From the NCBI GenBank assembly GCA_030706565.1, contig JAUZOH010000001.1:1-62171 (forward strand): DNA of 62,171 bases. The letters are read 5' to 3'. Every line of letters begins with the position of its first letter. The first letter of the stretch is position 1. The notes under the pieces are model-generated. The model was not told the origin of the DNA. It did not search any database and was given only the letters and a program-made list of their open reading frames with translations. This stretch comes from Bacteroidota bacterium. GTDB taxonomy: Bacteria; Bacteroidota; Bacteroidia; Bacteroidales; JAUZOH01. Positions 771 to 48,679 of this stretch are shown here, piece after piece. The translations under genes were made by a program, and so were the position numbers.

Positions 771-1207
771 TCTTTTTCGTCTTAAACAACCGATAATAAC
801 TTCTTTGTGCTTGTTTTTTCTATTTACTCTAGTGATGATCGACCTGAGGATGTATATTTTGTATTCTTGCATCCTTGTTTTTTCACAGTTTTCTTGCTAT
901 TTTCTCTCTGAAATAAATGCCTGTATTGTGAATTCCAGCGTTACCGTATATCCCATTTCCCCCGATATTAATACTGGCCCAATGGTCGAATGCTACCTTT
1001 GCTAACATTTACAATAGCTCCAGGCCGTATTTTTATTATTTTTCTGAATCCGAACTTATATATTTGTATCATTTTAAGTTAATAAGATGCAAAGATAGTG
1101 AATGTGTTTTAGTGCGGAAATATTTCCACTTCGTAATTTTGGGTGTTACACAGTAAAATATTTGACTTTTTGTTGCATAGTTGAGCAACAGTTTGTATCT
1201 TTGTAGC

Positions 1208-8970: not shown

Positions 8971-9192
8971 TTATCTATTATCCGGGTCTTGCAGAGCATT
9001 ATAAAATTCTGCAATCCTGTACATTTCTCTAATTGTGAAAGTTTGTGATTTTAATTTTCGGTCTAATGTGGCCTTTGAAAGCCTGATATGTTCATACAAG
9101 GCTTTCTTTTGCATGCCGTAAGCTTCGATAATCCAGGGTATTTTCTTTTGAAGTTCTTCAAAGTCCGATATTATCTTGGTTTCTAATATCAT
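8971..9192 (-). CDS. Small hypothetical protein at the head of the tra operon (possible HTH)
   Basis: 73-aa ORF co-oriented with tra. The segment KKALYEHIRLSKATLDRKLK looks HTH-like. Confidence 0.35.
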   Translation of the reverse strand: MILETKIISDFEELQKKIPWIIEAYGMQKKALYEHIRLSKATLDRKLKSQTFTIREMYRIAEFYNALQDPDNR

Positions 9193-9724
9193 TGAAGGAT
9201 TTTTTTTGAATTTTGACCTCTTATATATAAATATACAAAAGTTTCATAAAAACACCATAAAAGATAGATATTTAATACCTTAAAAATATATTTAACCCTT
9301 GACTCTTATTGAGAGAAGGCTAAGCAAAATCCAAGGGATTGGGAGGATCATAAAAAAACATTTTTTATGAATGTACTTTAAAATAGGTGATTATTAAATT
9401 CTACTTATCCTGTGAATTAAGGGTTAAAAATTAGCAACTATTTTACCCTAAATGTTTTTTTCTTATTCCTTTTTATTCTCCACGTATTGCCTGAGGATAT
9501 TCAATAAAATCCAATGATTTTACTATTAGGTGCGAATGCCTTTTCCAATAATCAAATTGCAGTATGTGTGATTTTTTGCCTATTCCTGGATGTATCAGGT
9601 TTTCTTTTTTACTTCGATTTTAAACGGAAGCAGTTTCCAGTCTCAGAAATTTCTGGATATTTTGCTAAAAAATGCAGAGAACAACCCTTTAATCAATCAT
9701 TTGTCTGAAAACACAGTTGACTTG

Positions 9725-9793
9725 CGGCCAGGTTTAATATTTAAAAAAATTACTTTGTTTGAATAAAAAAATCTACCTTTAAGTCTGAGAATA
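9725..9793. repeat. Promoter-like ~70-nt direct repeat, copy 1
   Basis: cggccaggtttaatatttaaaaaaattactttgtttgaataaaaaaatctacctttaagtctgagaata recurs at 19312-19382. Confidence 0.75.
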
Positions 9794-10008
9794 ATCTTAA
9801 AAAGATTTATTCTGATGCAATAAAACAAATGAAAGCAGTCAAAAATAAGATAAATCAATTTACTACAAAATGTTAACGCCTATAGATAAGGCCGATATAA
9901 CAGCAATTATGCAGTTACAGAGATGTTACCAGCAAGTGTAAAGACACGCTGCTACCAATTTTGATAAATTATAAACTAAATATGACTAAATAATCTAACA
10001 GAAATCCC

Positions 10009-10923
10009 ATGAAAATTAATTATGACATAAAAGCATGGAAAGGGAAACAGCCGGTAAAAGTATTGGAAGATAAACTTGATGATTATAAAAAAGAAGTATT
10101 AACTAATTTGAATTTAATCCAATATGAAAATGTGTTTGACTATGATTACACCGAAATATCAATTCAAACAGGTCCTTTTGCTGGAATTGATAAAAGAATA
10201 AAAATAGAAGAATCATTTCAATCATTTATTTGGATTTGGTCTTATTGCCTAATGACATTATATGATGAAGGTGTTGCAAAACCAAGATTGAAGATTACAA
10301 ACTCTAAATCAAAGATTAAACAAGCTTTTGATTTATTAGATTATGGATATACATTACTTGACAATTTCCAGAATTGGGATTTAAAGCTTCCAAACCCTCA
10401 AGAATATGATATATCTGATTCTTATTATATAGAAAAGGCAAATGGCGTTTACATTTTCGCCATGAATGAATTATATCTGCATGAAATTGGACATATCCAT
10501 AATGGAGATATTGATAAACTTATAAATCATAATACTGGTAGGTATATTATAGATTTAGCTGAAAGGAAATCTTTTGAATATAATGCAGACAAATTTGCTT
10601 TTGAAAAGTTAGTAATTGGTATAAAAAATCCAATTTATAACAAAACAATTGAGTTTGGAATAATCTCTGGCTTCTCAGCTCTCATTATGATTCAAACTAC
10701 ATTGAAAGACTATTCAGGTATGTATCCAGATGCAGATGAAAGATACAAAATAGCGATAGAATCTCTGAATATTCATGAAGAAGATAATCTATGGGGAATT
10801 GCTTGTTTGGCATGGAAACTATGGAGTAATAAAAATTCAAGAGATTTAGATTGGGCAGTAGAATACGACACCTACAAAGAATTATTTCAAGCAACAATTG
10901 TAAAAGTAAACGATTTTAAGTAA
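10009..10923 (+). CDS. ImmA/IrrE-like (M78-type) HExxH metallopeptidase-like protein
   Basis: 304 aa with LHEIGHIHNGD followed ~25 aa later by ERKSFEYNADKFAFEKL (HExxH ... E..A..FA pattern). No HTH or signal peptide is present. Confidence 0.55.
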   Translation: MKINYDIKAWKGKQPVKVLEDKLDDYKKEVLTNLNLIQYENVFDYDYTEISIQTGPFAGIDKRIKIEESFQSFIWIWSYCLMTLYDEGVAKPRLKITNSKSKIKQAFDLLDYGYTLLDNFQNWDLKLPNPQEYDISDSYYIEKANGVYIFAMNELYLHEIGHIHNGDIDKLINHNTGRYIIDLAERKSFEYNADKFAFEKLVIGIKNPIYNKTIEFGIISGFSALIMIQTTLKDYSGMYPDADERYKIAIESLNIHEEDNLWGIACLAWKLWSNKNSRDLDWAVEYDTYKELFQATIVKVNDFK

Positions 10924-10943
10924 AATAAAATAACACCAGCTGG

Positions 10944-11073
10944 TAACACGCGGTCATAAAACATTGGGGTTTAAGTGGTATGCCAAGCTCATCCCTCGCT
11001 GGCAAGGTTCTTATCGGTTGATAGATTCGCAGCTCCGAATTCCCCAACGTTTCATACCACCAACCGTTGTGTG
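10944..11073. repeat. 130-nt imperfect inverted repeat / structured spacer
   Basis: The arms are TAACACGCGGTCATAAAACATTGGGG and CCCCAACGTTTCATACCACCAACCGTTGTGTG. GC content is visibly higher than in the flanks. Confidence 0.6.
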
Positions 11074-11094
11074 TAATGCAAAAAAAGACAGTAC

Positions 11095-13860
11095 ATGAAA
11101 TTTAAAACCCAACATTTAAGAAATATTATAGATGCTAACAATGATAATCGATTAGCAATTTTTATTGGAGCTGGAGTTTCAAAAAATTCTGAAACGAAAG
11201 GACTAAAACTACCAACATGGCAAGATTTAATTGATGATTTGAAGAAGGATTTAGAATTAACTAGTGAGACTGACTTTTTAAAAATAGCACAACTTTATTA
11301 TCTTGAATTTAAAGAGTATTCATATCTTAAAAAACTAAAAAAATATTTCCCTGATAGCATAAGACCTTCTTCAATACACAAACAAATATTTGATTTAAAT
11401 CCTCAAGTAATTATTACAACAAATTGGGATACAATTCTTGAGAAAACAATAGAAGAAAATGCATATATCTATGATGTAATTCGTTGTGATGAAGATTTAG
11501 TTAAATCCACTATTCAAAAGAAAGTGATTAAAATGCATGGGGATTTTAAAAATCACAATATAGTTTTCAAAGAAGATGATTACTTGAATTATCAATATAA
11601 TTTTCCATTAATCGAAAATTACGTAAAAAGCATTTTGTCTACTCATACGGTACTTTTTCTTGGTTATTCATATAATGATATTGATTTCAAACAAATAATG
11701 AAGTGGTTGCAAAATTATTCAAAAGTACAACCGCCTAGATATCTAACTGTCTTTTATGAAAATTCAACCCAAAATAAGTATTTAGAAAATCATGGAATAA
11801 CCACATTTGTGCTTGATGAACCCAATGGTTCAATGAATCTTCAAAGCGACTATACTGAGAATACAAAGTATTTCTTAGACTTGATAAAAAATGATGAAAG
11901 AATAAACTTCTTAAAAACAGAGAATGACATTATCAATTTTGTTTTCAATAAATTAAAGGTGCTTTCTGAACTAAATGGTATTTTAATTGAACAAATACAA
12001 ACCTCATTGACTAATTGTGGTTTTCTGTATGATGATAGCAATAAAACAATATTGGAATTCCGAGATAAAATACTCACATATGACTTAAATAAAGAAAAGA
12101 GAAATATTTATAAGGAATTTGTAAAAATACTAAATAAGCAAAACGATAAAGAATTATCAAACAAGACTCTGTATAGTATTTTTGAAATTTTAAGTAAAGC
12201 TAATATTCAAGGAATTGTTATCACCGAAGACGACTTATCAACAAGGCAAAAGAAATATATAGTTCTTGATGACTATTTAACAAATAAAGAATTTAATCTT
12301 GAATCAAAGTATCTTGATTTCAATTTTTTAATTGAGGACAAATCAACAAATGATATTTATGAATTGCTTCAAAAATCATTCATTTTATATCAGCTTGAAG
12401 ATTATGAAAAAGCTTATGAGATTGTTGAAAAAACAATAATACAGTGTTTAAAACAGAAAAATTACACTGTTTTATTTATTTCAATGTTTAATAAAAATGT
12501 TCTTCTCTGGAATTTGAAATATGGCTTTTTCCAAAATAGAAAAGCATATGAAAACATTGAAGAATATAACTTAGAAGAAAAGTTTAATCAGCTTCCAAAA
12601 GACTTACAAAAAGCTCTTAAGCCAATTTATAACTTTTTAAACTCTTGTTATTTGTACAAATTTGCGTACAGAATATCAGAAGAATTAAATAAAAAAGAGG
12701 AATCTAAAAAAACTATCAAATCTGGCGGTTTTGTTTTAAACTCTAATATTACTGAATCTTCTTCAAAACATAAAAATCTAATTTTATTTGTACTTCGTAA
12801 TGGAATAATTTTAGAAGGAAGAAGCGAATTTCAAAGTATCAATAAATATTTTCTGAAAATTTCTATTATAAGACAGGTTCAAAATAAAGCGACTACATTT
12901 AATGAAATAGAGTTTTTTTCAGCGATAAAATATTTGTCAAATAAAGAATTAAAGCATCTACTATCTGATTTTTTCAAGTATGATTCTGAACAAAAGGGAA
13001 AATTTGAAATTTCAGAAGAAAATAAAGATTGGTTAATTAATAGGGTATTAATAAATCTTATAAATAGATATATAAATTCCGATAATGCGTTTAACACATT
13101 TGAAAAATACTTAGAGAATACAATCTTCTTACTTTCATTAACAAAACTATCAGATGATGAAATTTCAAAAATTTTAGAAAGCTTTAATATCATTATCGAT
13201 AAAGCTAAAAATACAATTGGAATTTACGAATCAATAAATCTTTTCTTGGAAAACCAATATAATCTTCATAGTACATCCATTAATGAGAGTTCATTACTTA
13301 ATTTGATAAAATCCATAATTAATAAATTTGTAAGCAAGCAATATAATGGATATGATTTTCATGCTATTACACGCAATGAAATTTCGAATTTATATGGTTA
13401 TGCAAGAGAACAAAAAGCAATTTTTAAAGAAAAAGCATTGATTAATAAATTAATTGATGCATCAAAAGAACTACCAATAGAAGAACAATTAAATATTTCA
13501 GAATCTCTTCTTCTTAGTATTTATGATATTTCTACTGATGAAATTAAGACAAAAATTAAAGAATATATTTTGAGCATAAAATCAAGTGAAACAAAAGAAA
13601 AACATGATTATTTAATATTTGAGCTCATCTTAATTATTCGTGATTTTAAAAATTTAGAAACATCTTTAATCAAAGAGCTTGAAGAATATTTTGAACCATA
13701 TAAAGACTCAAAGTCATTTTCTTCAATTTGGTATTCAATAGATGGTCAAATAGATTATTTAATAAAAGAAAAGCAACTAACTCAGCTCAAAGAAGTTTCT
13801 TCAACGATAAAAACGTTAATAGAAAACTTTAAGAAAAGTGAAAGATTTTCAATATTTTAA
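11095..13860 (+). CDS. SIR2-domain protein with a long helical C-terminal region (defence-associated sirtuin-like)
   Basis: 921 aa. The N-terminus carries RLAIFIGAGVSKNS, IITTNWDTILE and VIKMHGDF (SIR2_2-type motifs). About 700 aa of K/E/L/N-rich sequence follow without a P-loop. Confidence 0.75.
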   Translation: MKFKTQHLRNIIDANNDNRLAIFIGAGVSKNSETKGLKLPTWQDLIDDLKKDLELTSETDFLKIAQLYYLEFKEYSYLKKLKKYFPDSIRPSSIHKQIFDLNPQVIITTNWDTILEKTIEENAYIYDVIRCDEDLVKSTIQKKVIKMHGDFKNHNIVFKEDDYLNYQYNFPLIENYVKSILSTHTVLFLGYSYNDIDFKQIMKWLQNYSKVQPPRYLTVFYENSTQNKYLENHGITTFVLDEPNGSMNLQSDYTENTKYFLDLIKNDERINFLKTENDIINFVFNKLKVLSELNGILIEQIQTSLTNCGFLYDDSNKTILEFRDKILTYDLNKEKRNIYKEFVKILNKQNDKELSNKTLYSIFEILSKANIQGIVITEDDLSTRQKKYIVLDDYLTNKEFNLESKYLDFNFLIEDKSTNDIYELLQKSFILYQLEDYEKAYEIVEKTIIQCLKQKNYTVLFISMFNKNVLLWNLKYGFFQNRKAYENIEEYNLEEKFNQLPKDLQKALKPIYNFLNSCYLYKFAYRISEELNKKEESKKTIKSGGFVLNSNITESSSKHKNLILFVLRNGIILEGRSEFQSINKYFLKISIIRQVQNKATTFNEIEFFSAIKYLSNKELKHLLSDFFKYDSEQKGKFEISEENKDWLINRVLINLINRYINSDNAFNTFEKYLENTIFLLSLTKLSDDEISKILESFNIIIDKAKNTIGIYESINLFLENQYNLHSTSINESSLLNLIKSIINKFVSKQYNGYDFHAITRNEISNLYGYAREQKAIFKEKALINKLIDASKELPIEEQLNISESLLLSIYDISTDEIKTKIKEYILSIKSSETKEKHDYLIFELILIIRDFKNLETSLIKELEEYFEPYKDSKSFSSIWYSIDGQIDYLIKEKQLTQLKEVSSTIKTLIENFKKSERFSIF

Positions 13861-13882
13861 TGTGAAAGAAAGCACTACACAC

Positions 13883-13933
13883 AATAAATAGGACTCTGAG
13901 CGGTCTGCAAGACCCAGCGATGAGTCTGTGTTG
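13883..13933. repeat. Cassette-end hairpin repeat, copy A
   Basis: aataaataGGACTCTGAGCGGTCTGCAAGACCCAGCGATGAGTCTgtgttg lies 22 nt after the SIR2 stop codon and is identical to copy B. Confidence 0.8.
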
Positions 13934-14157
13934 GACTACAAACGCCGGGCGATGGGCTATGTACTTAATGAGGTTTTTTGATATTTTTTAAAGGCAGGCT
14001 AATTAACCGTTCTTTGAAGTTTTGTAAATTTTGCAGGGTTCGGAACTATCTGCAATCTGCAAAAATAGAATTATAAAAAAACAATGTTTTTCTTTGCTTT
14101 TTCTTCGCTATAAGACATAGCTTTCCCAGTTATGCCGTCAGCGTAAAAAAAGAGTTA

Positions 14158-14379
14158 TTAATTAAGAATGTTGCAACACTTATTCAGGAAATAATCATCC
14201 GGAGATCGTATCCGGGGAAGTTCCCTTACGATAACCATTCGTCCTGTTTTGCATGCCGGGCAAAGGCAGGGATTTATGCCGGTCAGCCGTTCAAATCGTT
14301 GCAGGCCGGTTTCATTTGTCTTTTCCTTTTGCATTATTATGGTCTCGATGCCTAGTTTGTCTTCAGGAACAAACTGCAA
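14158..14379 (-). pseudogene. C-terminal remnant of an IS91-like (Y2/zinc-finger) transposase
   Basis: The 73-aa ORF ends ...RFERLTGINPCLCPACKTGRMVIVRELPRIRSP. This resembles the C-terminal CxxC tail of IS91-family transposases as I recall them. No upstream coding sequence is present. Confidence 0.35.
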
Positions 14380-14702
14380 GTTAAGGTTTCATTTTGAACT
14401 ATGGTTGTAAATGCCATTTTATAAACAACTTTTTCAAAATCAGGAACAAGCACGATGGCCTATTCAACAATTGTTAAACCCGATATTTTTCTCTTAATCA
14501 AATTTTTTTTGAATTAATCTTTGGAGTATAAATAGAATCGGGTACTTTAAAATAGCTATCCGCACAGGCGGATTTAGTTCAACAATGCGTGGTTTACGTT
14601 AATTTGAAGCGACAGTGGAAAAAACGGATGATACCCACCCAGTGAAAACGGCCATACCCGTTCACTTTTTTGCATAATCAGTCAAGGCGCTGTAAAAATA
14701 GA

Positions 14703-15422
14703 TTATTTTTTTCTCAAAGTATCTCCTAAAAGATCAAAACGTAGAGCCGTATGTACAATTCTGTCTAGAATGGCATCAGCCGCAGTCGTATTTTTCTTCA
14801 TTACGTCATACCAATCAGCAACAGGAAGCTGACTGATTATAACAGTTGACTTTCTTGAATGCCTGTCCTCAATGATTTCCATGAAGTCCAGCAGTTGCTG
14901 TCCGTCCAGAACTTTCATACCAAAGTCATCCAGTATAAGCAGGTCGGTCTGTGCCATCCTGTCAAAGAACTTTGGCAAGGAGGACTCTATGCGTGCCATG
15001 GAGATGTGTTCAAAAAGTTTTTGCATGTTGAAGTACGCGACCTTGTAACCGGAAAGACAAGCCTGATACCCCAATGCTGTACCGAGCCAGCTCTTTCCAG
15101 TGCCCGAAGCTCCTGTGATAGTTACGGGCACGCCTTTTCTTATGTACTCACAGGTGGCCAGCCTCATGATCCTGTCCCTTTCCACACCTCGTGCAGCATC
15201 CATGGACAAATCTTCAATGCACACCTGATAGCGGAAGCGGGCGTCCTTGATAAGCCGGGCATTGCGGTTCTCCTTTCTCTGGTCCTGCTCCGACTGCAAT
15301 AGCAGCTGCAGGCCGTCACTGAAGGACATGGAGTCTACCTTTCTTGTTTCCTGTAACGAGAGCCAGCATTGTGCCATTCCCGGCATCCTGAGACTCTTCA
15401 GTTCATTTGCGATTTCATTCAT
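14703..15422 (-). CDS. istB: IS21 helper ATPase IstB
   Basis: 239 aa with Walker A GASGTGKSW and Walker B LLILDDFG, immediately downstream of istA. Confidence 0.9.
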   Translation of the reverse strand: MNEIANELKSLRMPGMAQCWLSLQETRKVDSMSFSDGLQLLLQSEQDQRKENRNARLIKDARFRYQVCIEDLSMDAARGVERDRIMRLATCEYIRKGVPVTITGASGTGKSWLGTALGYQACLSGYKVAYFNMQKLFEHISMARIESSLPKFFDRMAQTDLLILDDFGMKVLDGQQLLDFMEIIEDRHSRKSTVIISQLPVADWYDVMKKNTTAADAILDRIVHTALRFDLLGDTLRKK

Positions 15423-15451
15423 AACACTTTAATTTTTAAAAATTATACATA

Positions 15452-17029
15452 TTACTTGAATTGTTCTTTTCCTCTGATGTTGGCATGGTCGGGATGGGCA
15501 GGGATGCAGTCGATGGATTCTGTCTCATTGACTTCCTCCACCCCCTTGCATTTGCTTTTTACTAGTTGCAGGACGAAGGGATATCGATACTTCTGATATA
15601 TCAGGGCTGTCTCGCACGCCTTCCTGAACAGGTTTGGATCGGTCGTTCTCTGCAGGTGCAGCAGACCCTCACAGCTTCTGTAGAAGGTCTCAGGAGGCAC
15701 GGTTGCCGTCGCAAACATATATTCGATGACCTGGCCAAGCTCGTCCATCGCTTTCTTGCCACGTGTGACATAATACTCCGGAGACCGGTCACGGTAAGCC
15801 AGCGAGTTGGACGCGAGGTGTTCACGTACCAGCGTATAATGTCCGGCGGAGTAATCTCGTTGATGCGTTGCCACACATTCCCCCTGGCAATACACCTTTA
15901 CAAGTGTCCGGGTATAAATGACCTTGACTTTTTGTCCGATGAAGGAGTGCGGCACGGAGTAGTAGTGCTTGTCTCTTCCCAGATAGATGCACCCGTTGAC
16001 GCCCACCTTCAGCTGGGTATAGGAGCGTATCTCGAAGTCGGCGGATGGAAGCGGACGGAGCTCGGGCTTCTCAATGGCCAGGAACTGTTCCTCACGGGTA
16101 TATGGATGCTGCTGCATGCGTTTCTGATTGTGGACCTTCATTTTCTCCGCTACGGCTCTGTTCAATTCCTCCAGCGAATAGAAACGTTCGTTGCGCAAAG
16201 GGGCATAGACCCTCTGATAGACAAGCTTCACATGATCCTCGACAAGACTTTTGTCCTTTGGGTGTACCGGACGTGCCGGCAAGACAACGCAGCCATAATG
16301 GTTTGCAAGGTCCTCCATGACGCGGTTGATCTCCGGTTCATAGGGGTCGGTCTTGATGACGGCGGATTTCAGGTTGTCCGGGACAATTATTTTTGGAACG
16401 CCTCCAATGGATCTGAAACAGCTTGCAATGGCATACACCAGATCCTCGCTTCTTTGAGAGGGAACGCCCAGAGCGTAGCCATAGTCCGTTGCGGGCATAC
16501 ATGCGACAAACATCTGAACCGTAATGATCTCGCCCGTCTCCATGTCGGTGTACTCCATCGTGTCCCCGGCAAAGTCTATGAAGATCTTCTCTCCACCAAC
16601 AAAGGTGTCCTTCAAAACGGTTGAGGACCTTTCTTCTTCGGCCAACTTGTTCTGCCTGCAGTGAAAGCGGAACTGCGTAAGAGAGTATCCCTCTGGGTTC
16701 TCCGCCTTGTATTCCTCCCACAGGAGCTTGAGAGTTACATGTTTGCGAGCCTCTTCCTTTTTCAGGTAAGGGAGTTTCTCCTTAAGCTGCTCAAAACGCA
16801 TATCCGTGTAGGCCGGACTGCCGCCGGTCATGCGGTGCTCCAGCACGGGGTCGTCAAGCCTGAGAAGTCTGTTGATGTTCATACTGTCGGATTCCGCACG
16901 TTTGACGTAGCGGTTCACCGTTTCCTTGTTCATCTCCAATTGCGTGGCTATCTTACGGTTGGATACCCCATCCAGATGCAACTGGAGCACTTGTTTGATC
17001 TTGCTCATTTCTTTTGTCTTTCCTGCCAT
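15452..17029 (-). CDS. istA: IS21 transposase IstA
   Basis: The start was taken at MAGKTKEMSKIKQVLQLHLDGVSNRKIATQL (HTH). A DDE integrase core follows. The track ORF extends to 17293 across the terminal repeats. Confidence 0.9.
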   Translation of the reverse strand: MAGKTKEMSKIKQVLQLHLDGVSNRKIATQLEMNKETVNRYVKRAESDSMNINRLLRLDDPVLEHRMTGGSPAYTDMRFEQLKEKLPYLKKEEARKHVTLKLLWEEYKAENPEGYSLTQFRFHCRQNKLAEEERSSTVLKDTFVGGEKIFIDFAGDTMEYTDMETGEIITVQMFVACMPATDYGYALGVPSQRSEDLVYAIASCFRSIGGVPKIIVPDNLKSAVIKTDPYEPEINRVMEDLANHYGCVVLPARPVHPKDKSLVEDHVKLVYQRVYAPLRNERFYSLEELNRAVAEKMKVHNQKRMQQHPYTREEQFLAIEKPELRPLPSADFEIRSYTQLKVGVNGCIYLGRDKHYYSVPHSFIGQKVKVIYTRTLVKVYCQGECVATHQRDYSAGHYTLVREHLASNSLAYRDRSPEYYVTRGKKAMDELGQVIEYMFATATVPPETFYRSCEGLLHLQRTTDPNLFRKACETALIYQKYRYPFVLQLVKSKCKGVEEVNETESIDCIPAHPDHANIRGKEQFK

Positions 17030-17622
17030 GACTTTGATTATGCTTACTTGGGTACTGTTACACAGCACAAAGTAAACCGGACAAAAGTGAACGGACATGC
17101 TCCGTTTTTTAAAAAGTCTGGATAAGTGAACGGCAATGCTCCGTTTTGCTTTATCATCCAGTTCCTTACGAAGACAAATTGGGTGGCAATGCTCCGTTTT
17201 TAGGTGGATTTTTGCCTTACCAGAATTGTCTGGGTGGTAATGCTCCGTTTTTTTGTCTGTTTTTGCCTGTTCTTGCAGGAAATGAACGGACATGCTCCGT
17301 TTTTTAGGCCCTTTTTAGGACAAAAAGAAGGTTATTGAACTCCGTCTTTTTGGGTGGGTATGCTCCGATTTTTCCACGACAGAATCCGCCGGTAGGTTTG
17401 CAGCCGTTGAAACCAACATGATCACGTTTCCCGCACTGTGTCTATCCCTGACAGTTAGTGGTAATTTTGAATTTTTGGAAAAAGTAATTGAACAGAAAAG
17501 TAACTCGTGGGTTAATAATATTGGATAAATATTTAATAAATTTTAAAATCATATATTATTTCATACTTTTGTACAATAATCAAGTATGGCAATAGTTAAA
17601 AGATTAAATTAAAAGGAAGGTT

Positions 17623-17859
17623 ATGAGTACCATATTGGAAAGTTTAAAGTCATACTTTCAAAACAATTCCAGAGAGCAAATAGAAAGGGATTGGGCTGAA
17701 TTTGAAAAGTACGATAAAATAGGACTTAAAGTAGATGAGTTTTTAGAACGATGCAAATTGTTATATGAACAAGATACAAAAGATACCTACTGGGAATATA
17801 ATTGTTTAAATCAAATAATTAAAAATCCGAAGTTCGCTTCGGATTTTTTTTTAATTTAG
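17623..17859 (+). CDS. Hypothetical small protein (candidate antitoxin of the chaperone cassette)
   Basis: 78-aa acidic ORF with a hydrophobic/aromatic tail KNPKFASDFFLI. It is the first gene of a 3-gene same-strand cassette. Confidence 0.45.
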   Translation: MSTILESLKSYFQNNSREQIERDWAEFEKYDKIGLKVDEFLERCKLLYEQDTKDTYWEYNCLNQIIKNPKFASDFFLI

Positions 17860-17885
17860 TTTTCTAAAATTAACTATGACATTAA

Positions 17886-18293
17886 ATGAATAAAGCCGCA
17901 TTTACTTTAGAAAAATATCGATTTGAGAAAGTAATGATTGATTTTTCAAAAAAATCATCAAATGATTTAGACATCGGTTTTGAACCGTCTGGAAAATTTT
18001 TCTCGTCTGACTCTAGTTATGAACTAAAATTTGTATTTATTGCTCATAACGAAAATCCGAAAAATGCATTTGTTCAAATTGAATGTATTGCTCAGTTTAA
18101 ATTTGAAGAAAACATAAAATTTGAAGAGATCCCATCCTATTTTTACAGAAATAGTATTGCCATAATCTTTCCGTATGTTAGAGCTTTTATTAGTACTGTA
18201 ACTTTACAAGCTAACATTCCACCAATTGTAATTCCAACAATGAATTTATCTTCTTTGGAGAATCCTTTAAAAGAAAATACAATACAGATTTAA
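17886..18293 (+). CDS. SecB-like chaperone
   Basis: 135 aa. ...FVQIECIAQFKFEE...YFYRNSIAIIFPYVRAFISTVTLQANIPPIVIPTMNL matches the C-terminal LFPY.R...S.....GFPP..L.P.NF signature of SecB. Confidence 0.6.
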   Translation: MNKAAFTLEKYRFEKVMIDFSKKSSNDLDIGFEPSGKFFSSDSSYELKFVFIAHNENPKNAFVQIECIAQFKFEENIKFEEIPSYFYRNSIAIIFPYVRAFISTVTLQANIPPIVIPTMNLSSLENPLKENTIQI

Positions 18294-18305
18294 CTTGACA
18301 TTACA

Positions 18306-18884
18306 TTGAAAGTAAAAACCGTATACCAAACACTTGAAGATAGAGGAAATCCAGATGAGATAGAACAAAATGCACCGTTTCCATGTCATTGGGAGAATGC
18401 TTGGCTTGGTGACGGTTACTACTTTTGGGATACCTTTATAGAAAATGCTCATTGGTGGGGAAATGTAAGATATAAAAATAACTATGTAATTTGTAGCTTC
18501 AGTTGTGACTTTGATACAGCAACCTGTTTCGATTTAGTTGGAGATACAGAACACATGTTAGACTTCTCCAATAGCATTGAATTTCTAAAACAGCAAAAAT
18601 TAATTGATGTTAATACAACTGTCCCTAGAGTCTTAGCTCTTTTGAAAAGCAAAGTCAAAGGATTTAATTATCAGGCGATAAGAGTTTATGGCATAAAATC
18701 AATTTCAGATTTTAAACAAGACTTTGAGAAATATAGACATCGATTGGTTTTTGAACTTTCAAAACCCCAATATTTAGACTATAAACCTGCAATACAAATT
18801 TGCATATTTGACAAAAAAGGAATTAACCTAAGAAATACAAAAATTGAATTTCCAGACGAATACAATTATGACTTTTTAGTTTAA
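18306..18884 (+). CDS. Hypothetical protein (candidate toxin/effector of the cassette)
   Basis: 192 aa with a TTG start. It carries AWLGDGYYFWDTFIENAHWWG, a G.G.YF-type motif reminiscent of ART-like/DUF3990-type folds (weak). Hairpin repeat copy B follows. Confidence 0.45.
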   Translation: MKVKTVYQTLEDRGNPDEIEQNAPFPCHWENAWLGDGYYFWDTFIENAHWWGNVRYKNNYVICSFSCDFDTATCFDLVGDTEHMLDFSNSIEFLKQQKLIDVNTTVPRVLALLKSKVKGFNYQAIRVYGIKSISDFKQDFEKYRHRLVFELSKPQYLDYKPAIQICIFDKKGINLRNTKIEFPDEYNYDFLV

Positions 18885-18895
18885 AAACTACCGCT

Positions 18896-18946
18896 AATAA
18901 ATAGGACTCTGAGCGGTCTGCAAGACCCAGCGATGAGTCTGTGTTG
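18896..18946. repeat. Cassette-end hairpin repeat, copy B
   Basis: Identical to copy A over ~50 nt and located 11 nt after the stop at 18884. Confidence 0.8.
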
Positions 18947-19311
18947 ATTGCCACTACAACCTGTTTCTGCCTTACCGGTTAAAATCAAATATAAATCTGG
19001 AAATAAACAGTTCCACTTCCACTATAGTCAAGCCACTTAACGATCTTTTCAAGATCAAACATTTATTAATCGCGCAGCGTAAAACAACCATTCCGTTTTG
19101 GCTGGGTTCTGTCTGAGCAAAGTCCGCCTCCTGGCGGACGGCGCGAGTTCAGCCAGCCAAGCATTTTTCTTTGGTTCCGTTTCCTTTGTTGCCACAAAAG
19201 AAATGAATGTATAATCTTTTTGTGACGACAACTAAGCGAAGCGGCCTCACTCTCCGGCATTTTAAAGAGAATAAAAAAGAATAAGGCAATTTGACCGGAT
19301 TAAAAATCTAC

Positions 19312-19382
19312 CGGCCAGGTTTAATATTTTTTTTAAAATTACTTTGTCTGTATAAAAAAATCTACCTTTAAGTATGAGAATA
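19312..19382. repeat. Promoter-like ~70-nt direct repeat, copy 2
   Basis: cggccaggtttaatattttttttaaaattactttgtctgtataaaaaaatctacctttaagtatgagaata lies ~105 nt upstream of higB. Confidence 0.75.
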
Positions 19383-19837: not shown

Positions 19838-20278
19838 ATGAAAACATTAATATATACAGTAATAAAGGATATTAAGCAATACAAAAATTATTGTGACACT
19901 TTGGAGAAATTGGTTCTTCGAAATGATAAAGAAAATAATGACGAGATTGAACTGCTTACTCTATTGATTGAAAAATGGGATAATGAGCATAATACATTTA
20001 ATGATTCAGATCCAATAGTATTACTTAAATTTCTAATGGAAAATCATGATTTAAAGGCAAAAGATTTGGTAACTATTATGGATTTATCAAAAGGGACAAT
20101 CTCAAAGATTTTAAACTATCATAAAGGACTTTCAAAAGATACAATAAGGAAGCTTTCAGATTATTTTAAAGTATCTCAAGAAGCCTTTAATCGACCTTAT
20201 AAACTGATTAACGAAGTGAATAAACATTTCCGAAATGCAAGTTTAATGAATACAAGGAAAAATATGATAGAGGCATAA
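19838..20278 (+). CDS. higA: HigA-family HTH antitoxin
   Basis: 146 aa with a C-terminal HTH (LKAKDLVTIMDLSKGTISKILNYHKGLSKDTIRKLSDYF), 19 nt downstream of higB. Confidence 0.75.
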   Translation: MKTLIYTVIKDIKQYKNYCDTLEKLVLRNDKENNDEIELLTLLIEKWDNEHNTFNDSDPIVLLKFLMENHDLKAKDLVTIMDLSKGTISKILNYHKGLSKDTIRKLSDYFKVSQEAFNRPYKLINEVNKHFRNASLMNTRKNMIEA

Positions 20279-20336: not shown

Positions 20337-20879
20337 CTATTTACAGTAGTTTTGTGGCAGAAGTTCTGCCAATCTATTGGCTTTGTGCTCAGAAATACGT
20401 GAGAGAACGTCCCTGAACCAGGTAAAGGGTTCTACTTTGTTGAGTTTGCAGGATCCAATAAAGGAGTACATCATGGCCGCCCTTTGTGCGGCTTCATGTG
20501 ATCCGGCAAATAGATAATTCTTCCTTCCCAGAGCCACCGGACGTATGCTATTCTCCACAAGGTTGTTATCTATTTCATAACGGCCATCTTCCATGTAACG
20601 CAACAGCCGGGGCCATAAGGCCAGGGTATAAGATATAGCTCCCCCTATAACACTTTTGGGCAAAACCTGTTCAAGGTTTGCTTTTAGCCAGGTTTCCATT
20701 TTGGTTAGCACGGGCAATGCTTTTTCCTCCCTCAGGGATTTTCGGGCTGTTGCATCCATCCCCTGTTCTCGGGCACATCGCTCCATGGCATACAAATCCT
20801 GCATCAGCATAAGCATCTGCTTTGCCCTATCCGGATCATTATCTAAGGAATCTTCAAATTTACGCCTGGCATGCGCCAT
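20337..20879 (-). pseudogene. IS66-family transposase, C-terminal fragment only
   Basis: AHARRKFEDSL...YAMER...LENSIRPVALGRKNYLFAGSHEAAQRAAMMYSFIGSCKLNKVEPFTWFRDVL is the conserved IS66 Tnp C-terminus. The N-terminal ~300 aa are absent and the region is GC-rich. Confidence 0.85.
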
Positions 20880-21014: not shown

Positions 21015-22340
21015 CTATAGGGTTCTGTTTTTAACCCAAAACGCCCTTAAGGGATAAACAAGTTTATATATTAGACGTTGTTCTTGTGTAATAATTTCGC
21101 AGCTACCATTATATAAACTTTTCATAGAAATATCTTTACCGTATGTAGTTAATAATTTTGACGAAAAATTAACTTCAGCAAAGTAAAAGTCATTATCCGG
21201 GACAAGAGATATCTTATTGACAAAACCGCAAAGCATACCATATTCCATATATGGAAAATCATCTAATTTAATAATAACTTTCTGTCCAACCTTAACTTTG
21301 CCAGAACTTTGTATAGGTAATTGTATCTTGGCAATATAAGAAATTGAACCAGAAGGTATGATAGTAAATACGACATCCCCTTTTTTTACATTTTGGTTTT
21401 TGTTCCATATACGAGTAAAAGTCATTATGCCATCTGTTGTTGATTTTAAAATATATGTTTTTTCCCAATCAGAAATATGTGAAAGTAAAACTTCATAGCT
21501 TTCTTTAAGATTATTATGTTGTTGGGTTGTTTGTTCTAAACGTTGAGATGATAAATCGAGAATATCCTGATTTAATTTTGTAACTTGAATGTTTGCATTA
21601 ATAATTTCGGTATTTACATTTTCAAGAGTACTTTTTGACTGCAAATAGGTAGTCCGAGATTTCTCAAAATCAGCTAGCGCTATAACTTCATGTTTATATA
21701 ATAATGAATCTCGCCTGAATTGACTTCTCGCAATACTTAATTGTTCTTTTGAATAATACAATTTTTTATTTAATTTTTTGATATAGCTATTTTCTTGAGA
21801 TATCTCGAAGTTAAGGCTTGCTATTTTTTTTCGTTGGTAATTAAGAAAAACAAAATTGTTATAGTCACTTAATTGTTTTATGAAAGATGAATAATATGGC
21901 TGAATCTCGCCTAATTTAAAATAATCATATGTAATTCCTGAAAAGATAGTATCCTTAAACTGAAATATTGAGTTTAAGGAGTCTGTTAAGTTTTTAATTG
22001 CGAAAACTTCCTTATAATCGGCATTACTCTCTATAACTGCTAATATCTCATTTTCATTTACATGTTGATTGTCCCTAATAAATATTTTTTCAATCCGACC
22101 ATCTGAATGTGCTACTATAGAAGAAGGAATATTATTTGCAGTAATTTGAACTTTTCCTGAAACGATATCAGGGTATTTAAAAAACCAGCATCCTATAAGG
22201 ATTATCATTAGAAAAATAAATATTATGGTAATGCCAAATCTGACAAACCATTTAGGTACAATTCCAATAATATCATTAATCTCATTGTTCTGTAACCTAA
22301 GTTTTCCAATTTCTGTTTTTAGTGGTTTATTATTTTCCAT
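21015..22340 (-). CDS. HlyD-family secretion adaptor (bacteriocin export)
   Basis: 441 aa with an N-terminal TM helix and a long coiled-coil middle region, directly downstream of the C39-ABC transporter. Confidence 0.75.
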   Translation of the reverse strand: MENNKPLKTEIGKLRLQNNEINDIIGIVPKWFVRFGITIIFIFLMIILIGCWFFKYPDIVSGKVQITANNIPSSIVAHSDGRIEKIFIRDNQHVNENEILAVIESNADYKEVFAIKNLTDSLNSIFQFKDTIFSGITYDYFKLGEIQPYYSSFIKQLSDYNNFVFLNYQRKKIASLNFEISQENSYIKKLNKKLYYSKEQLSIARSQFRRDSLLYKHEVIALADFEKSRTTYLQSKSTLENVNTEIINANIQVTKLNQDILDLSSQRLEQTTQQHNNLKESYEVLLSHISDWEKTYILKSTTDGIMTFTRIWNKNQNVKKGDVVFTIIPSGSISYIAKIQLPIQSSGKVKVGQKVIIKLDDFPYMEYGMLCGFVNKISLVPDNDFYFAEVNFSSKLLTTYGKDISMKSLYNGSCEIITQEQRLIYKLVYPLRAFWVKNRTL

Positions 22341-22343
22341 TGT

Positions 22344-24533: not shown

Positions 24534-24538
24534 TTCTA

Positions 24539-26732: not shown

Positions 26733-26787
26733 ATTAAAATGTATTTAAAAAACAGGGTTATTTTTACATAACCCTGTTAAATTAAGA

Positions 26788-26952: not shown

Positions 26953-27085
26953 GATTATAATTTTATTAAATATTAGTCTACTCGTTACCCTTTTCGACTT
27001 CCGGGACATAAAATTATGGCCATTAATTATTATTGCATTACAAATTTTATTATTTACACTCTGATATTTTCGGAGTATAAAATAA

Positions 27086-48677: not shown

Positions 48678-48679
48678 AA

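What the first reader, a model, noticed from the sequence alone, without database searches (positions are those of the whole stretch)
10009..13860. ImmA/IrrE-like HExxH protein followed by a 921-aa SIR2-domain protein: candidate two-gene NAD-targeting defence module
ORF 11095-13860 carries SIR2_2-type motifs in its first ~200 aa: the FIGAGVS nucleotide-binding loop, TTNWD, and KMHGD with the presumptive catalytic His. About 700 aa of helical K/E/L-rich sequence follow with no P-loop. That is the layout of defence-associated sirtuins (DSR2-like), not of a deacetylase. A co-oriented 304-aa protein sits upstream with LHEIGH...EYNADKFAFEKL, the M78/ImmA-IrrE signature, but it lacks the HTH partner that usually accompanies such peptidases. 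I cannot match a peptidase + SIR2 pairing to the SIR2 defence architectures I know (Thoeris ThsA, DSR1/DSR2, SIR2-HerA, SIR2-pAgo, SIR2-STAND). The pair sits in very AT-rich cargo on a conjugative element next to IS debris, which is typical defence-island context.
Basis: partly seen in the sequence, partly recalled or inferred. Interest (0 to 1): 0.85.

Follow-up and report, generated by a model that had tools for sequence, protein, structure and literature searches.

The report
Adjacent Lit and DSR2 defence cassettes
The two genes are not a new peptidase-plus-sirtuin system: they are two already-known kinds of stand-alone anti-phage suicide genes (a Lit-type protease and a DSR2-type NAD-destroying enzyme) that sit side by side as separately mobile cassettes in the defence cargo of a Bacteroidota conjugative plasmid.

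Summary
Both ORFs are real (10009-10923, 304 aa; 11095-13860, 921 aa). The 921-aa protein is a full-length DSR2 homologue. It hits SIR2_2 and keeps the four catalytic residues. Its sequence aligns with solved B. subtilis DSR2 to residue 579, and the AlphaFold model matches DSR2 chains end to end.

The 304-aa protein is not ImmA/IrrE (M78). It belongs to the Lit phage-exclusion protease family (Peptidase_U49).

The pairing is not conserved. About nine distinct contexts of Lit-clade genes (52-97% identity) have no DSR2 neighbour, and three are inside type I R-M operons. About 17 DSR2-family loci have no Lit-clade neighbour, and some orthologues are solitary genes. One locus (L018) has an ambiguous HExxH protein upstream.

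Homology breakpoints define two modules, Lit (9925-11086) and DSR2 (11065-13888). They meet at CCG|TTG, at the 3' end of a 132-nt AAC...GTT imperfect palindrome. Related loci show textbook attC-like sites around the same genes. Neighbouring units are other known defence systems (PD-T4-9, PD-T7-5).

No integron integrase is in the window, and the integron-type cassette reading is inferred, not proven.

Verdict: two new members of known families, adjacent in a defence-cassette array.

The parts
9725..9793 (+). D9a repeat, the upstream copy of a direct repeat. It holds a near-consensus Bacteroidota promoter (TTTG-N16-TAccTTTa) about 215 nt before the Lit ATG and may drive the cassette run.
   Evidence: 89% identical to 19312-19382. 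The promoter reading is by eye against the TTTG/TAnnTTTG consensus, which I recalled from memory. This is inference.
9873..9931 (+). Short AAC...GTT palindromic remnant and left junction of the Lit module (G|TTACCAGC at about 9925)
   Evidence: Homology with L009-L012 (95.7%) starts at 9925, at GTTACC. Upstream of that point the sequences differ.
10009..10923 (+). Lit-family (Peptidase_U49) zinc metalloprotease gene, 304 aa. H158-E159-x-x-H162, E190 and D194 are invariant in the clade.
   Evidence: Pfam U49 26.3 bits (GA 23.9). NCBIfam Lit 92 bits, E 2.9e-26, full length but below the equivalog cut-off. PADLOC Lit 6e-9. Clade alignment. The family has 670 clusters among 1.84 billion representatives.
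10941..11072 (+). 132-nt attC-like imperfect palindrome (TGGTAAC ... CCAACCG|TTGTGT) that belongs to the Lit module
   Evidence: About 93% conserved after the 97%-identical Lit gene in L009-L011, where the next gene is unrelated. Long-range pairing appears in the MFE structures, but the energy is not significant.
11065..11086 (+). Junction core CGTTGTGTGTAATGCAAAAAAA, shared by the end of the Lit module and the start of the DSR2 module. The inferred crossover is at CCG|TTG.
   Evidence: blastn block ends overlap here. Left of G|TT the window matches L009. Right of it the window matches L016, L018 and L019 (TTGnnnGTAATGC).
11095..13860 (+). DSR2-family SIR2 NADase gene, 921 aa (SIR2, then a middle domain, then a HEAT-like helical C-terminal domain)
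   Evidence: SIR2_2 3.9e-24. phmmer to PDB DSR2 7.7e-37 over residues 8-579. BLASTP 24% identity, 3e-45. AF2 pLDDT 84.4. In Foldseek the top 44 hits are full-length DSR2 chains, TM 0.55-0.70.
13879..13936 (+). D7a, a 58-nt hairpin element (ACACAAT...GAGTC TGT GTTGGAC) just after the DSR2 stop codon. It looks like a short attC-type site, with AAT in place of AAC.
   Evidence: Homology with the L016 orthologue ends at 13888. There is 51-nt exact identity to 18896-18946 and a third copy at 59232-59294, each after an unrelated + strand gene.
14703..17293 (-). IS21-family insertion (istB 14703-15422, istA 15452-17293) that interrupts the cassette run
   Evidence: IstB_IS21 178 bits and Mu-transpos_C_2 in the IstA-like ORF. 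GC is 50-52%.
17454..17465 (+). Junction motif GTTAGTGGTAAT at the 5' end of the next unit (PD-T4-9)
   Evidence: Identical 14-mer (GTTAGTGGTAATTT) at the Lit/next-gene junction of L009.
17623..18884 (+). Neighbouring defence unit: PD-T4-9 genes. 17886-18293 matches the C component and 18306-18884 the A component. The 78-aa ORF at 17623-17859 is unassigned.
   Evidence: PADLOC PD-T4-9_C 199 bits and PD-T4-9_A 279 bits.
18892..18949 (+). D7b, the second copy of the hairpin element, closing the PD-T4-9 unit
19312..19382 (+). D9b, the downstream copy of the D9 direct repeat

Best explanation
The locus holds two independent single-gene abortive-infection defences. They lie in tandem as separately mobile cassettes in the accessory region of a Bacteroidota conjugative plasmid.

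Gene 1 is a Lit-family (Peptidase_U49) zinc metalloprotease. By analogy with E. coli Lit, it would stay latent until a late phage structural protein appears, then cleave a core translation factor and stop protein synthesis.

Gene 2 is a DSR2-family sirtuin. By analogy with B. subtilis DSR2, its HEAT-like C-terminal domain would bind a phage tail-tube-type protein. That would switch on the N-terminal SIR2 NADase (S29, N110, D112, H148), deplete NAD+ and abort infection.

The genes are probably co-transcribed. They share a strand, and no promoter or terminator consensus lies between them. They do not need each other.

Their adjacency comes from cassette shuffling. Each gene sits in its own homology block bounded by AAC...GTT imperfect palindromes of the integron attC type, and the inferred crossover is at G|TT.

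Shown here: family membership by sequence and fold, catalytic residues, lack of conserved pairing, module boundaries.
Inferred: triggers, targets, co-transcription, and the integron-type recombination mechanism.
For: DSR2 membership:
- SIR2_2 hit.
- E 7.7e-37 to solved DSR2 over residues 8-579, with N110=N133 and H148=H171.
- S29, N110, D112 and H148 invariant in 34 homologues. These are the catalytic residues named in PMC11850899.
- AF2 pLDDT 84, and all 44 top Foldseek hits are full-length DSR2 chains, TM 0.55-0.70.

Lit membership:
- Pfam U49 above its gathering score; NCBIfam Lit and PADLOC Lit hits cover nearly the whole length.
- PGAP calls plasmid relatives 'phage exclusion protein Lit family protein'.

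Independence:
- Lit-clade genes at 52-97% identity in about 9 distinct contexts have no DSR2-like ORF.
- DSR2 orthologues at 50-77% identity have other upstream genes: PD-T7-5 in L016, unknown proteins in L019 and L021, NUDIX in L020. P0036 is a solitary gene between opposite-strand genes in 10 places.
- Ten IMG/VR loci with a full-length or near-full-length DSR2-family match have no U49 gene.
- DSR2 defends as a single gene (bioRxiv 10.1101/2021.12.14.472415). For Lit, the paper read here reports only that the T4 Gol capsid peptide activates Lit to cleave EF-Tu (PMC9712102). That Lit acts as a single gene is my recollection.

Modules:
- blastn blocks are 9925-11086 (Lit, 95.7% to L009, different downstream genes) and 11065-13888 (DSR2, 75.7% to L016).
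- The junction was analysed.

attC-like sites around the same genes:
- L019 (GGCTAAC...GTTAGCC, perfect R''/R' complement), L016, L018 and the held-out L021.
- Strictly defined sites occur at 4 of about 18 junction windows, against about 0.02 per window in background.

Neighbouring units are known defence systems.
Against: - The two genes share a strand with only 171 nt between them and no recognisable promoter or terminator. Co-expression, and therefore some functional interplay, cannot be excluded.
- One other locus (L018, 73% DSR2 orthologue) has an HExxH protein directly upstream. A precomputed table flags it as PF10463, and it scores E 4.5e-5 against the NCBIfam Lit model.
- For the cassette mechanism: no integron integrase or any tyrosine recombinase was found among the 41 window ORFs scanned.
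- The window's own spacer does not fold better than shuffles and fails my strict site definition.
- D7 has AAT in place of AAC.
- The window DSR2 gene does not carry the 3' site shared by its L016 and L019 orthologues.
- The recombinase fragments beside the Lit cassette in L009/L010 lack the spacing expected for the IntI-specific insertion.
- No biochemical activity was tested.
Confidence: 0.78

Rival explanations
1. This is an obligate two-gene system. The metallopeptidase senses infection and proteolytically activates, or licenses, the SIR2 NADase (or the reverse).
For: - Same strand, 171-nt gap, no promoter or terminator consensus in between.
- In L018 an HExxH protein also sits upstream of a DSR2 orthologue.
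Against: - No co-occurrence in about 9 Lit-clade contexts or about 17 DSR2-family loci.
- The solitary orthologue P0036 has no same-strand neighbour at all.
- The 97%-identical Lit gene carries the same spacer but is followed by unrelated genes.
- The L018 protein is not detected by the Lit-clade HMM, the broad U49 HMM or my Pfam scan, while its SIR2 partner is 73% identical to the window protein. That is not the pattern of co-evolving partners.
- DSR2 is reported to function as a single gene.
Confidence: 0.05
2. The pair is co-selected but not obligate. The two autonomous Abi genes are kept adjacent and co-transcribed because together they cover complementary late-stage phage signals (capsid versus tail tube), or back each other up against anti-defence proteins.
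For: - Probable co-transcription.
- Possible recurrence of a zincin-like gene upstream of DSR2 in L018.
- The U49 family is rare overall, with 670 clusters in 1.84 billion representatives, so even two juxtapositions would be notable if L018 is truly U49.
Against: - The family assignment of the L018 protein is weak and inconsistent.
- In both loci an attC-like element separates the genes.
- Other orthologues pair with PD-T7-5, unknown proteins or nothing.
- The sample of informative loci is small.
Confidence: 0.1
3. The modular boundaries are not integron-type. The palindromic spacers are ordinary terminators, RNA-stability hairpins or REP/MITE-like elements, and the gene blocks were swapped by homologous or illegitimate recombination within defence islands.
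For: - No IntI in the window.
- Spacer folding is not significant.
- A generic AAC...GTT hairpin scan does not differ from shuffles.
- D7a and D7b share 51 nt of exact identity starting at the DSR2 homology breakpoint, which looks like homologous exchange.
- A 2.9-kb cassette would be unusually large for an integron.
Against: - Breakpoints fall at G|TT at two junctions.
- The sites have RYYYAAC / GTTRRRY-like ends, 58-132 nt lengths, asymmetric spacers and extrahelical bases. Examples are L019 GGCTAAC...GTTAGCC, L021 ATTCAAC...GTTAGGC, and an 11-bp L stem with one bulged G.
- Sites within one locus resemble each other, as in chromosomal integron arrays.
- L019 has tandem cassettes, including a duplicated one.
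- Integrons are documented in Bacteroidota (PMC8618304, PMC9668308).
Confidence: 0.3

Closest known systems
DSR2 (defence-associated sirtuin 2) of Bacillus subtilis 29R (PDB 8k98, 8wkt, 8wy8 and others)
   Same: - Single polypeptide of about 920-1005 aa.
- N-terminal SIR2 NADase with the same four catalytic residues.
- Sequence homology continues through the middle domain.
- The predicted fold superposes over the whole chain, including the HEAT-like C-terminal domain.
- Orthologues occur as stand-alone genes in defence islands.
   Different: - Only 24% identity over the first ~580 residues (17-19% in the structural alignments).
- About 85 aa shorter.
- The C-terminal sensor region has no significant sequence similarity, so the phage protein it recognises is unknown and need not be a tail tube protein.
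- The host is Bacteroidota and the gene is plasmid-borne.
- Tetramer formation and NADase activity are untested.
Lit (e14 prophage phage-exclusion protease of E. coli; MEROPS/Pfam Peptidase_U49)
   Same: - Same Pfam family.
- Match to the NCBIfam Lit model over nearly the full length.
- HExxH zinc site plus a conserved downstream E...D.
- Single-gene defence.
- Relatives are annotated 'phage exclusion protein Lit family'.
   Different: - Scores far below the Lit equivalog cut-off (92 vs 274 bits).
- Belongs to a Bacteroidota clade.
- The trigger (Gol-like capsid peptide?) and the substrate (EF-Tu?) are inferred only.
- No solved structure exists for comparison.
ImmA/IrrE (Peptidase_M78) with an HTH partner, for example RosmerTA RmrA or CapP
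   Same: It shares the short zincin motif HExxH followed by an E..AD.FA-like motif.
   Different: - No M78 Pfam hit.
- BLASTP against the window's own genuine HTH-M78 protein (60324-61385) aligns only HE.GH.
- No fold match to any PDB entry.
- No HTH domain or partner.
Integron gene cassettes and CALINs that carry anti-phage systems (Vibrio chromosomal integrons, Darracq et al. 2024)
   Same: - Same-orientation units with no recognisable promoter, each ending in an AAC...GTT imperfect palindrome.
- Homology breakpoints at G|TT.
- The cargo is made of defence genes.
- Sites within one array resemble each other.
   Different: - No IntI, attI or Pc was identified in the window.
- The location is a Bacteroidota conjugative plasmid.
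- Cassettes are large (1.1-2.9 kb) and hold full-size known systems, not streamlined mini-systems.
- Several sites deviate from the consensus (AAT for AAC).
- The attC calls were not validated with IntegronFinder.
Multi-gene SIR2 defences (Thoeris ThsA/ThsB, SIR2-HerA, SIR2-pAgo, Avs5)
   Same: A SIR2 NADase effector. The best PADLOC HMM hits are ThsA SIR2 models.
   Different: - No SLOG, HerA, pAgo or STAND domain.
- No conserved partner gene.
- Genuine DSR2 gives the same ThsA-model hits in this library, so that label only reflects the shared SIR2 domain.

Membership tests
DSR2 (defence-associated sirtuin 2) | N-terminal SIR2 (SIR2_2) domain | tested here: met
   Pfam PF13289, E 3.9e-24, 85.8 bits, residues 105-237.
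DSR2 (defence-associated sirtuin 2) | Catalytic residues equivalent to DSR2 S51, N133, D135 and H171 | tested here: met
   S29, N110, D112 and H148 align to them and are invariant in 34 homologues. The residue list comes from PMC11850899.
DSR2 (defence-associated sirtuin 2) | Homology beyond the SIR2 domain: middle domain plus HEAT-like C-terminal domain, about 1000 aa in total | tested here: met
   phmmer aligns residues 8-579 to DSR2 29-607 (E 7.7e-37). Foldseek aligns about 1000 columns to full-length DSR2 chains, TM 0.55-0.70, E down to 6e-26.
DSR2 (defence-associated sirtuin 2) | Functions as a stand-alone gene with no conserved partner | tested here: met
   Orthologues have varied neighbours or none. 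This is context only; function was not assayed.
DSR2 (defence-associated sirtuin 2) | NADase activated by binding a phage tail tube protein; tetramer; inhibited by DSAD1 | not testable with these tools
   Needs biochemistry and phage assays.
DSR2 (defence-associated sirtuin 2) | Recognised by a curated DSR2 HMM (PADLOC or DefenseFinder) | tested here: inconclusive
   PADLOC gives only ThsA and PDC-S65 SIR2-domain hits. Genuine B. subtilis DSR2 residues 30-608 behave the same way in this copy.
Lit / Peptidase_U49 | Pfam PF10463 at or above the gathering score | tested here: met
   26.3 bits against a cut-off of 23.9, which is marginal. All 14 close relatives carry PF10463 in the precomputed table.
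Lit / Peptidase_U49 | Equivalog of E. coli Lit (NCBIfam NF007238 cut-off) | tested here: not met
   92.4 bits against a cut-off of 274, although the match covers residues 54-302 of the protein and positions 55-305 of the 309-position model. It is a family member, not an equivalog.
Lit / Peptidase_U49 | HExxH zinc-binding motif with conserved downstream acidic residues | tested here: met
   H158, E159, H162, E190 and D194 are invariant in the clade alignment.
Lit / Peptidase_U49 | Cleaves EF-Tu when activated by a phage capsid peptide | not testable with these tools
   Known for E. coli Lit (PMC9712102). Inferred only for this protein.
ImmA/IrrE (Peptidase_M78) | Pfam PF06114 domain | tested here: not met
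   No hit even at E <= 1. The window's genuine M78 protein at 60324-61385 scores 49 bits. BLASTP between the two aligns only HE.GH.
ImmA/IrrE (Peptidase_M78) | Fused or adjacent HTH repressor partner | tested here: not met
   No HTH domain in the protein, and no adjacent same-strand HTH gene.
ImmA/IrrE (Peptidase_M78) | Fold similarity to solved M78 structures | tested here: not met
   The AF2 model (pLDDT 83, pTM 0.87) has no PDB match better than E = 1.
Integron cassette array (complete integron or CALIN) | attC sites: R'' RYYYAAC, imperfect palindrome, R' GTTRRRY, about 57-141 bp, one per cassette 3' end, same orientation | tested here: inconclusive
   Clear in related loci L019, L021, L016 and L018. 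The window sites are deviant: 10941-11072 is TGGTAAC...GTTGTGT with an irregular outer stem, and D7 has AAT. Strictly defined sites are enriched at junctions, but the windows were chosen post hoc. Folding energy and a generic scan are not significant.
Integron cassette array (complete integron or CALIN) | Cassette boundaries (recombination crossover) at G|TT of R' | tested here: met
   Homology breakpoints are at G|TTACC (9925) and CCG|TTG (11066-11068) when the window is compared with L009 and with L016, L018 and L019.
Integron cassette array (complete integron or CALIN) | Integron integrase (IntI with its specific extra domain), attI and Pc next to the array | tested here: not met
   No tyrosine recombinase among the 41 window ORFs scanned. 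The L009/L010 recombinase fragments score about equally as XerC/D and IntI, and the K-to-HxxR spacing is about 62 aa, too short for the IntI insertion. At best the window holds an integrase-less cluster (CALIN).
Integron cassette array (complete integron or CALIN) | Detection by the IntegronFinder attC covariance model | not testable with these tools
   The tool and its model are not available. My own model attempt failed because the stems were not in register in the alignment.
Two-gene or multi-gene SIR2 defence (Thoeris, SIR2-HerA, SIR2-pAgo, or the proposed peptidase+SIR2) | A partner gene conserved next to the SIR2 gene across genomes | tested here: not met

The most novel reading that the evidence does not exclude
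The Lit|DSR2|PD-T4-9 run on this Bacteroidota conjugative plasmid is an integrase-less integron-type cassette array (CALIN). The same full-size defence genes, including a 2.9-kb DSR2 cassette, move between arrays in other metagenomic Bacteroidota-like contigs by attC x attC recombination at G|TT. That would make integron-style cassette exchange, carried on conjugative plasmids, a route for trading complete anti-phage systems outside Proteobacteria.
Probability: 0.45. Interest if true: 0.55.

Novelty: new member of a known kind. Interest (0 to 1): 0.35.

Why it matters
For the finding as stated, the result is mainly corrective. There is no new peptidase-sirtuin architecture, only divergent Bacteroidota members of the DSR2 and Lit families.

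These members are still useful:
- The DSR2 sensor domain has no detectable sequence similarity to the characterised one, so it may recognise a different phage protein.
- The Lit clade gives a confident fold model for a family with no solved structure.

The more interesting by-product is the organisation. Full-size known defence systems (Lit, DSR2, PD-T4-9, PD-T7-5) appear as interchangeable units bounded by attC-like sites, on a conjugative plasmid and in related contigs. If confirmed, this extends the 'integrons as defence biobanks' idea from Vibrio chromosomes to Bacteroidota mobile elements, and to cassettes much larger than usual.

Tried and rejected
- **Rfam.** Scans at gathering score over the whole window and at E <= 1 over 9000-14700 gave no RNA family for the spacer or D7.
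- **Spacer folding.** Energies as RNA and as DNA are not better than shuffles (z -0.7, -0.3, -1.85), so thermodynamics cannot carry the argument.
- **Generic hairpin scan.** An AAC...GTT hairpin MFE scan of the window gives scores that overlap the shuffles, so it has no power. Rejected.
- **Covariance model.** MAFFT returned an ungapped alignment with L-stems out of register (i+j from 53 to 58). A model built from it would capture only the R boxes. Abandoned.
- **Array-wide motif searches.** CGTTGnnnGTAATGC is specific to DSR2 orthologues. GTT-N4-GTAAT occurs 6 times against 3.2 expected in the window, which is not significant as a count; only its positions are informative. One pattern had the wrong length.
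- **D7.** Not found in the fetched loci or in IMG/VR.
- **Promoters and terminators.** The sigma-70 and terminator scan and the Bacteroidota TTTG/TAnnTTTG search found nothing between the genes.
- **L018 upstream protein as a second Lit.** Results conflict. The precomputed table flags PF10463 and NCBIfam Lit gives E 4.5e-5. My Pfam scan, the Lit-clade HMM, the broad U49 HMM and hhalign (1% probability) do not support it. Treated as ambiguous.
- **L009/L010 recombinase fragments as IntI.** Not supported.
- **Circularity.** No exact terminal overlap of 15-399 nt.
- **Collection scans with the Lit alignment.** Only 5 loci from the genome and metagenome collections, and none from viral contigs.
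- **L036 (78% orthologue).** The contig starts 124 nt upstream of the gene, so it says nothing about the upstream neighbour.

Full report
**1. Observation**

The window has two co-oriented ORFs exactly as described: 10009-10923 (304 aa) and 11095-13860 (921 aa), separated by 171 nt. The region is very AT-rich (GC 0.24-0.30). The tra genes upstream are at 0.39-0.42 and the IS21 copy downstream is at 0.50-0.52.

**2. The 921-aa protein is a DSR2 homologue**

Pfam places a SIR2_2 domain at residues 105-237 (E 3.9e-24). A sequence search of the PDB gives B. subtilis DSR2 as the best match. The E-value is 7.7e-37, and the alignment runs from residue 8 to 579 (DSR2 29-607). That is well beyond the SIR2 domain and into the middle domain. 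Direct BLASTP against DSR2 residues 30-608, rebuilt from that alignment, gives 24% identity over 592 columns (E 3e-45).

In that alignment S29, N110, D112 and H148 correspond to DSR2 S51, N133, D135 and H171. Those are the catalytic residues named in PMC11850899, and the N133/H171 mutants abolish defence. All four are invariant in a 34-sequence family alignment.

An AlphaFold2 model built on that alignment is confident (mean pLDDT 84.4, pTM 0.73). In a Foldseek search of the PDB, the top 44 hits are all full-length DSR2 chains. E-values go down to 6e-26, and TM-scores are 0.55-0.70 over about 1000 aligned columns. So the SIR2 domain, the middle domain and the HEAT-like C-terminal domain are all shared.

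PADLOC labels the protein only with ThsA-type SIR2 models. As a control I scanned genuine DSR2, which gets the same labels and no 'Dsr2' model in this copy of the library. The missing label therefore says nothing.

The family is large. More than 1585 relatives were found, and the 120 best listed are mostly full-length. They come from Bacteroidota, Vibrio, Leptospira, Alteromonas and others.

**3. The 304-aa protein is Lit-family, not ImmA/IrrE**

The only Pfam hit is Peptidase_U49 (26.3 bits, gathering score 23.9). NCBIfam's 'phage exclusion protein Lit' model matches residues 54-302 against model positions 55-305 of 309. The score is 92 bits, well below the equivalog cut-off of 274. PADLOC's Lit model matches residues 62-302 (6e-9).

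H158-E159-x-x-H162, E190 and D194 are invariant in the clade. There is no M78 hit. The window has a genuine HTH+M78 protein (RmrA-like, 60324-61385), and BLASTP between the two aligns only the hexapeptide HE.GH.

A confident AF2 model (pLDDT 82.9, pTM 0.87) has no structural neighbour in the PDB (best E = 1), so there is no fold-level support for ImmA/IrrE either. An exhaustive profile search finds only 670 clusters of this family among 1.84 billion representatives. PGAP names plasmid-borne relatives 'phage exclusion protein Lit family protein'.

**4. The pairing is not conserved**

*Lit side.* Relatives at 52-97% identity were recovered in about nine distinct contexts (L001-L015). None has a DSR2-like ORF.
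- The 97%-identical copy (L009-L012) is followed by unrelated 155-aa and 440-aa genes.
- The 88% and 74% copies sit inside type I R-M operons, between hsdS (plus an NTase pair) and hsdR.
- Another copy lies about 3 kb from an RT gene on the opposite strand.

*DSR2 side.*
- L016/L017 (77%) has PD-T7-5 upstream (289 bits).
- L019 (72%) and L021/L022 (54%) have unknown proteins upstream.
- L020 (65%) is chromosomal, with a NUDIX gene upstream.
- P0036 (50%) is a solitary gene flanked by opposite-strand genes in ten places.
- Ten IMG/VR loci with a full-length or near-full-length DSR2-family match have no U49 ORF within the flanks held.

The one possible recurrence is L018 (73%). Its upstream 331-aa HExxH protein is flagged PF10463 in a precomputed table and scores E 4.5e-5 against the NCBIfam Lit model. 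It is not detected by my Pfam scan, the Lit-clade HMM, a broad U49 HMM built from about 150 representatives or hhalign. It is at best a very distant relative, and it pairs with a 73%-identical DSR2. Co-evolving partners would not diverge so unevenly.

**5. Two modules with their own boundaries**

blastn of the window against the fetched loci gives two blocks.
- The Lit block is 9925-11086 (95.7% to L009 2131-3298). It includes the whole 171-nt spacer.
- The DSR2 block is 11065-13888 (75.7% to L016 2086-4907).

The blocks overlap in 22 nt, CGTTGTGTGTAATGCAAAAAAA. Left of CCG|TT the window follows L009. Right of it the window follows the DSR2 orthologues, which all carry AAC(C)G|TTGnnnGTAATGC 20-30 nt before their ATG. 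The left edge of the Lit block is also at a G|TT (G|TTACCAGC, 9925).

The spacer is a 132-nt imperfect palindrome that begins TGGTAAC and ends GTTGTGT (10941-11072).

**6. attC-like sites in related loci**

L019 has tandem units upstream of its DSR2 orthologue. Each ends in a site such as GGCTAAC-AA-GGCGCTTCAAGGGACAAGCGGGC...GCCCGCTTGCCCCTGAGCTT-AAAC-GTTAGCC, where R'' and R' are perfectly complementary. One of these units, about 1090 nt, is duplicated.

Its DSR2 gene is followed by CCACAAC-AAT-GTATAAGCGTAATGCGGG...CCCCGCACTACGCTTATAC-TTACC-GTTGCGA. L016 carries a homologous 3' site.

L021 was not used to define any of this. It has three such sites, and two of them flank its DSR2 gene:
- ATTCAAC...GTTAGGC, an exact RYYYAAC / GTTRRRY pair.
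- GGGCTAAC-AAA-ATAATG(G)AGCAG...CTGCTCATTAT-TGAC-GTTCTTT, an 11-bp stem with one bulged G.

With a strict definition (AAC, a 1-4 nt spacer, a stem of at least 7 bp, a 3-8 nt spacer, GTT), shuffled sequence gives about 36 hits per 355 kb of single-strand sequence. That is about 0.02 per 200-nt window. Four of about 18 junction windows have such a site, with stems of 7, 9, 12 and 17 pairs.

Caveats:
- The junction windows were chosen post hoc.
- The window's own spacer fails the strict definition.
- Its folding energy is not significant.
- A generic hairpin scan has no power.

**7. The rest of the run in the window**

The DSR2 stop is followed by D7a (13879-13936), a 58-nt hairpin element ending TGT-GTTGGAC. 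It recurs after PD-T4-9 (18892-18949, with 51 nt identical) and after an unrelated gene at about 59.2 kb. Then come an IS21 insertion, the junction motif GTTAGTGGTAAT (17454) that is identical to the one at the L009 Lit junction, and a PD-T4-9 system.

A direct repeat (D9, 9725-9793 and 19312-19382) brackets the run and contains a near-consensus Bacteroidota promoter. That reading is by eye.

No tyrosine recombinase was found among the 41 window ORFs scanned. The contig has Rep3, ParA, a T4SS, a T4CP and a Mob-like gene, so it looks like a conjugative plasmid. At most, then, this is an integrase-less attC cluster. Integrons have been reported in Bacteroidota (PMC8618304, PMC9668308), and integron cassettes are known to carry anti-phage systems in Vibrio (bioRxiv 10.1101/2024.07.02.601686).

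**8. Mechanism**

*Shown:* family membership, catalytic residues, modularity and non-conservation of the pair.

*Inferred by analogy:*
- The Lit-like protease is activated late in infection by a phage structural protein and cleaves a translation factor. E. coli Lit, the T4 Gol peptide and EF-Tu are the model (PMC9712102).
- The DSR2-like protein binds a phage structural protein through its C-terminal domain and depletes NAD+.
- Co-transcription is plausible, because no promoter or terminator consensus lies between the genes. It is untested.

**9. Verdict**

The finding is real as a pair of defence genes, but it is not a new two-gene architecture. It is two divergent members of known single-gene families, juxtaposed in a defence-cassette array. 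The cassette organisation is the most interesting aspect and needs IntegronFinder and longer assemblies to confirm.

Noticed in passing
L007 3921-4835; L013-L015; contigs in ERZ1426823 and ERZ1426532: Lit-clade genes (74-88% identical to the window's) are embedded inside type I R-M operons, between hsdS (plus an NTase/SMODS-like pair) and hsdR, with gaps of only a few nt. The arrangement recalls PrrC in the E. coli prr locus.
   Followed up: partly
L003 1398-2528 and L005 5875-6975: Weak U49-like ORFs (broad HMM E about 1e-4) lie directly upstream of the Lit-clade gene. They may be tandem, highly diverged paralogues.
   Followed up: no
L020 3349-3822 and 3843-6605: A chromosomal DSR2-like orthologue (65%) has a NUDIX hydrolase gene ending 20 nt upstream. 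A NUDIX enzyme next to an NADase could be functionally linked, or the adjacency could be chance.
   Followed up: no
window 13879-13936, 18892-18949, 59227-59299: The D7 hairpin repeat has three copies, each just after an unrelated + strand gene. D7a and D7b share 51 nt of exact identity, starting at the point where DSR2 homology to L016 ends. D7 was not found in the other loci or in IMG/VR.
   Followed up: partly
window 9725-9793 and 19312-19382: The D9 direct repeat (89% identity) brackets the Lit / DSR2 / IS21 / PD-T4-9 stretch. It contains TTTG-N16-TAccTTTa, one mismatch from the Bacteroidota promoter consensus.
   Followed up: partly
window 17623-18884: A PD-T4-9 defence system: the C component scores 199 bits and the A component 279 bits in PADLOC. 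The 78-aa ORF at 17623-17859 may be the third component.
   Followed up: partly
window 59637-61385: A RosmerTA-like pair. RmrA (HTH + M78, 195 bits) follows a 219-aa protein with no family hit, presumably the toxin. This is the genuine ImmA/IrrE-type peptidase of the contig.
   Followed up: partly
window 19838-20278 and 20337-20879: An HTH protein that matches only the N-terminal part of PD-Lambda-2_B (72 bits) sits next to an IS66 transposase fragment. It looks like a defence gene truncated by IS activity.
   Followed up: no
window 21015-27448 (- strand): A cluster of HlyD-like, C39-peptidase ABC exporter, alpha/beta hydrolase, radical SAM and HTH genes. It looks like a RiPP or bacteriocin production and export cluster on the plasmid.
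   Followed up: no
window 29529-34649 (- strand): A 1706-aa ORF made largely of 11 tandem repeats of 273-279 nt (about 92 aa each). It lies between a PKD/Y_Y_Y-domain protein and a TraO-like gene and is probably a surface protein.
   Followed up: no
window 52308-53381, 54805-55545, 47082-50298: Rep3 initiator, ParA, T4 coupling protein and a DUF5712 Mob-like gene. The contig is a conjugative plasmid-like replicon and not an integrated element. No exact terminal overlap of 15-399 nt was found.
   Followed up: partly
L019 1-2260: A tandem duplication of an apparently non-coding unit of about 1090 nt. Each copy ends in a 130-nt attC-like site that resembles Vibrio cholerae repeats.
   Followed up: partly
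L050 4001-4294 and 7051-7545 (- strand): In an 85-kb IMG/VR contig, a U49-like ORF (broad HMM E 1e-6) lies 2.7 kb from a SIR2-domain gene that is not full-length DSR2, on the opposite strand.
   Followed up: no
window 705-776 and 1838-1909: A 72-nt direct repeat (90% identity), 1.1 kb apart, near the start of the contig.
   Followed up: no
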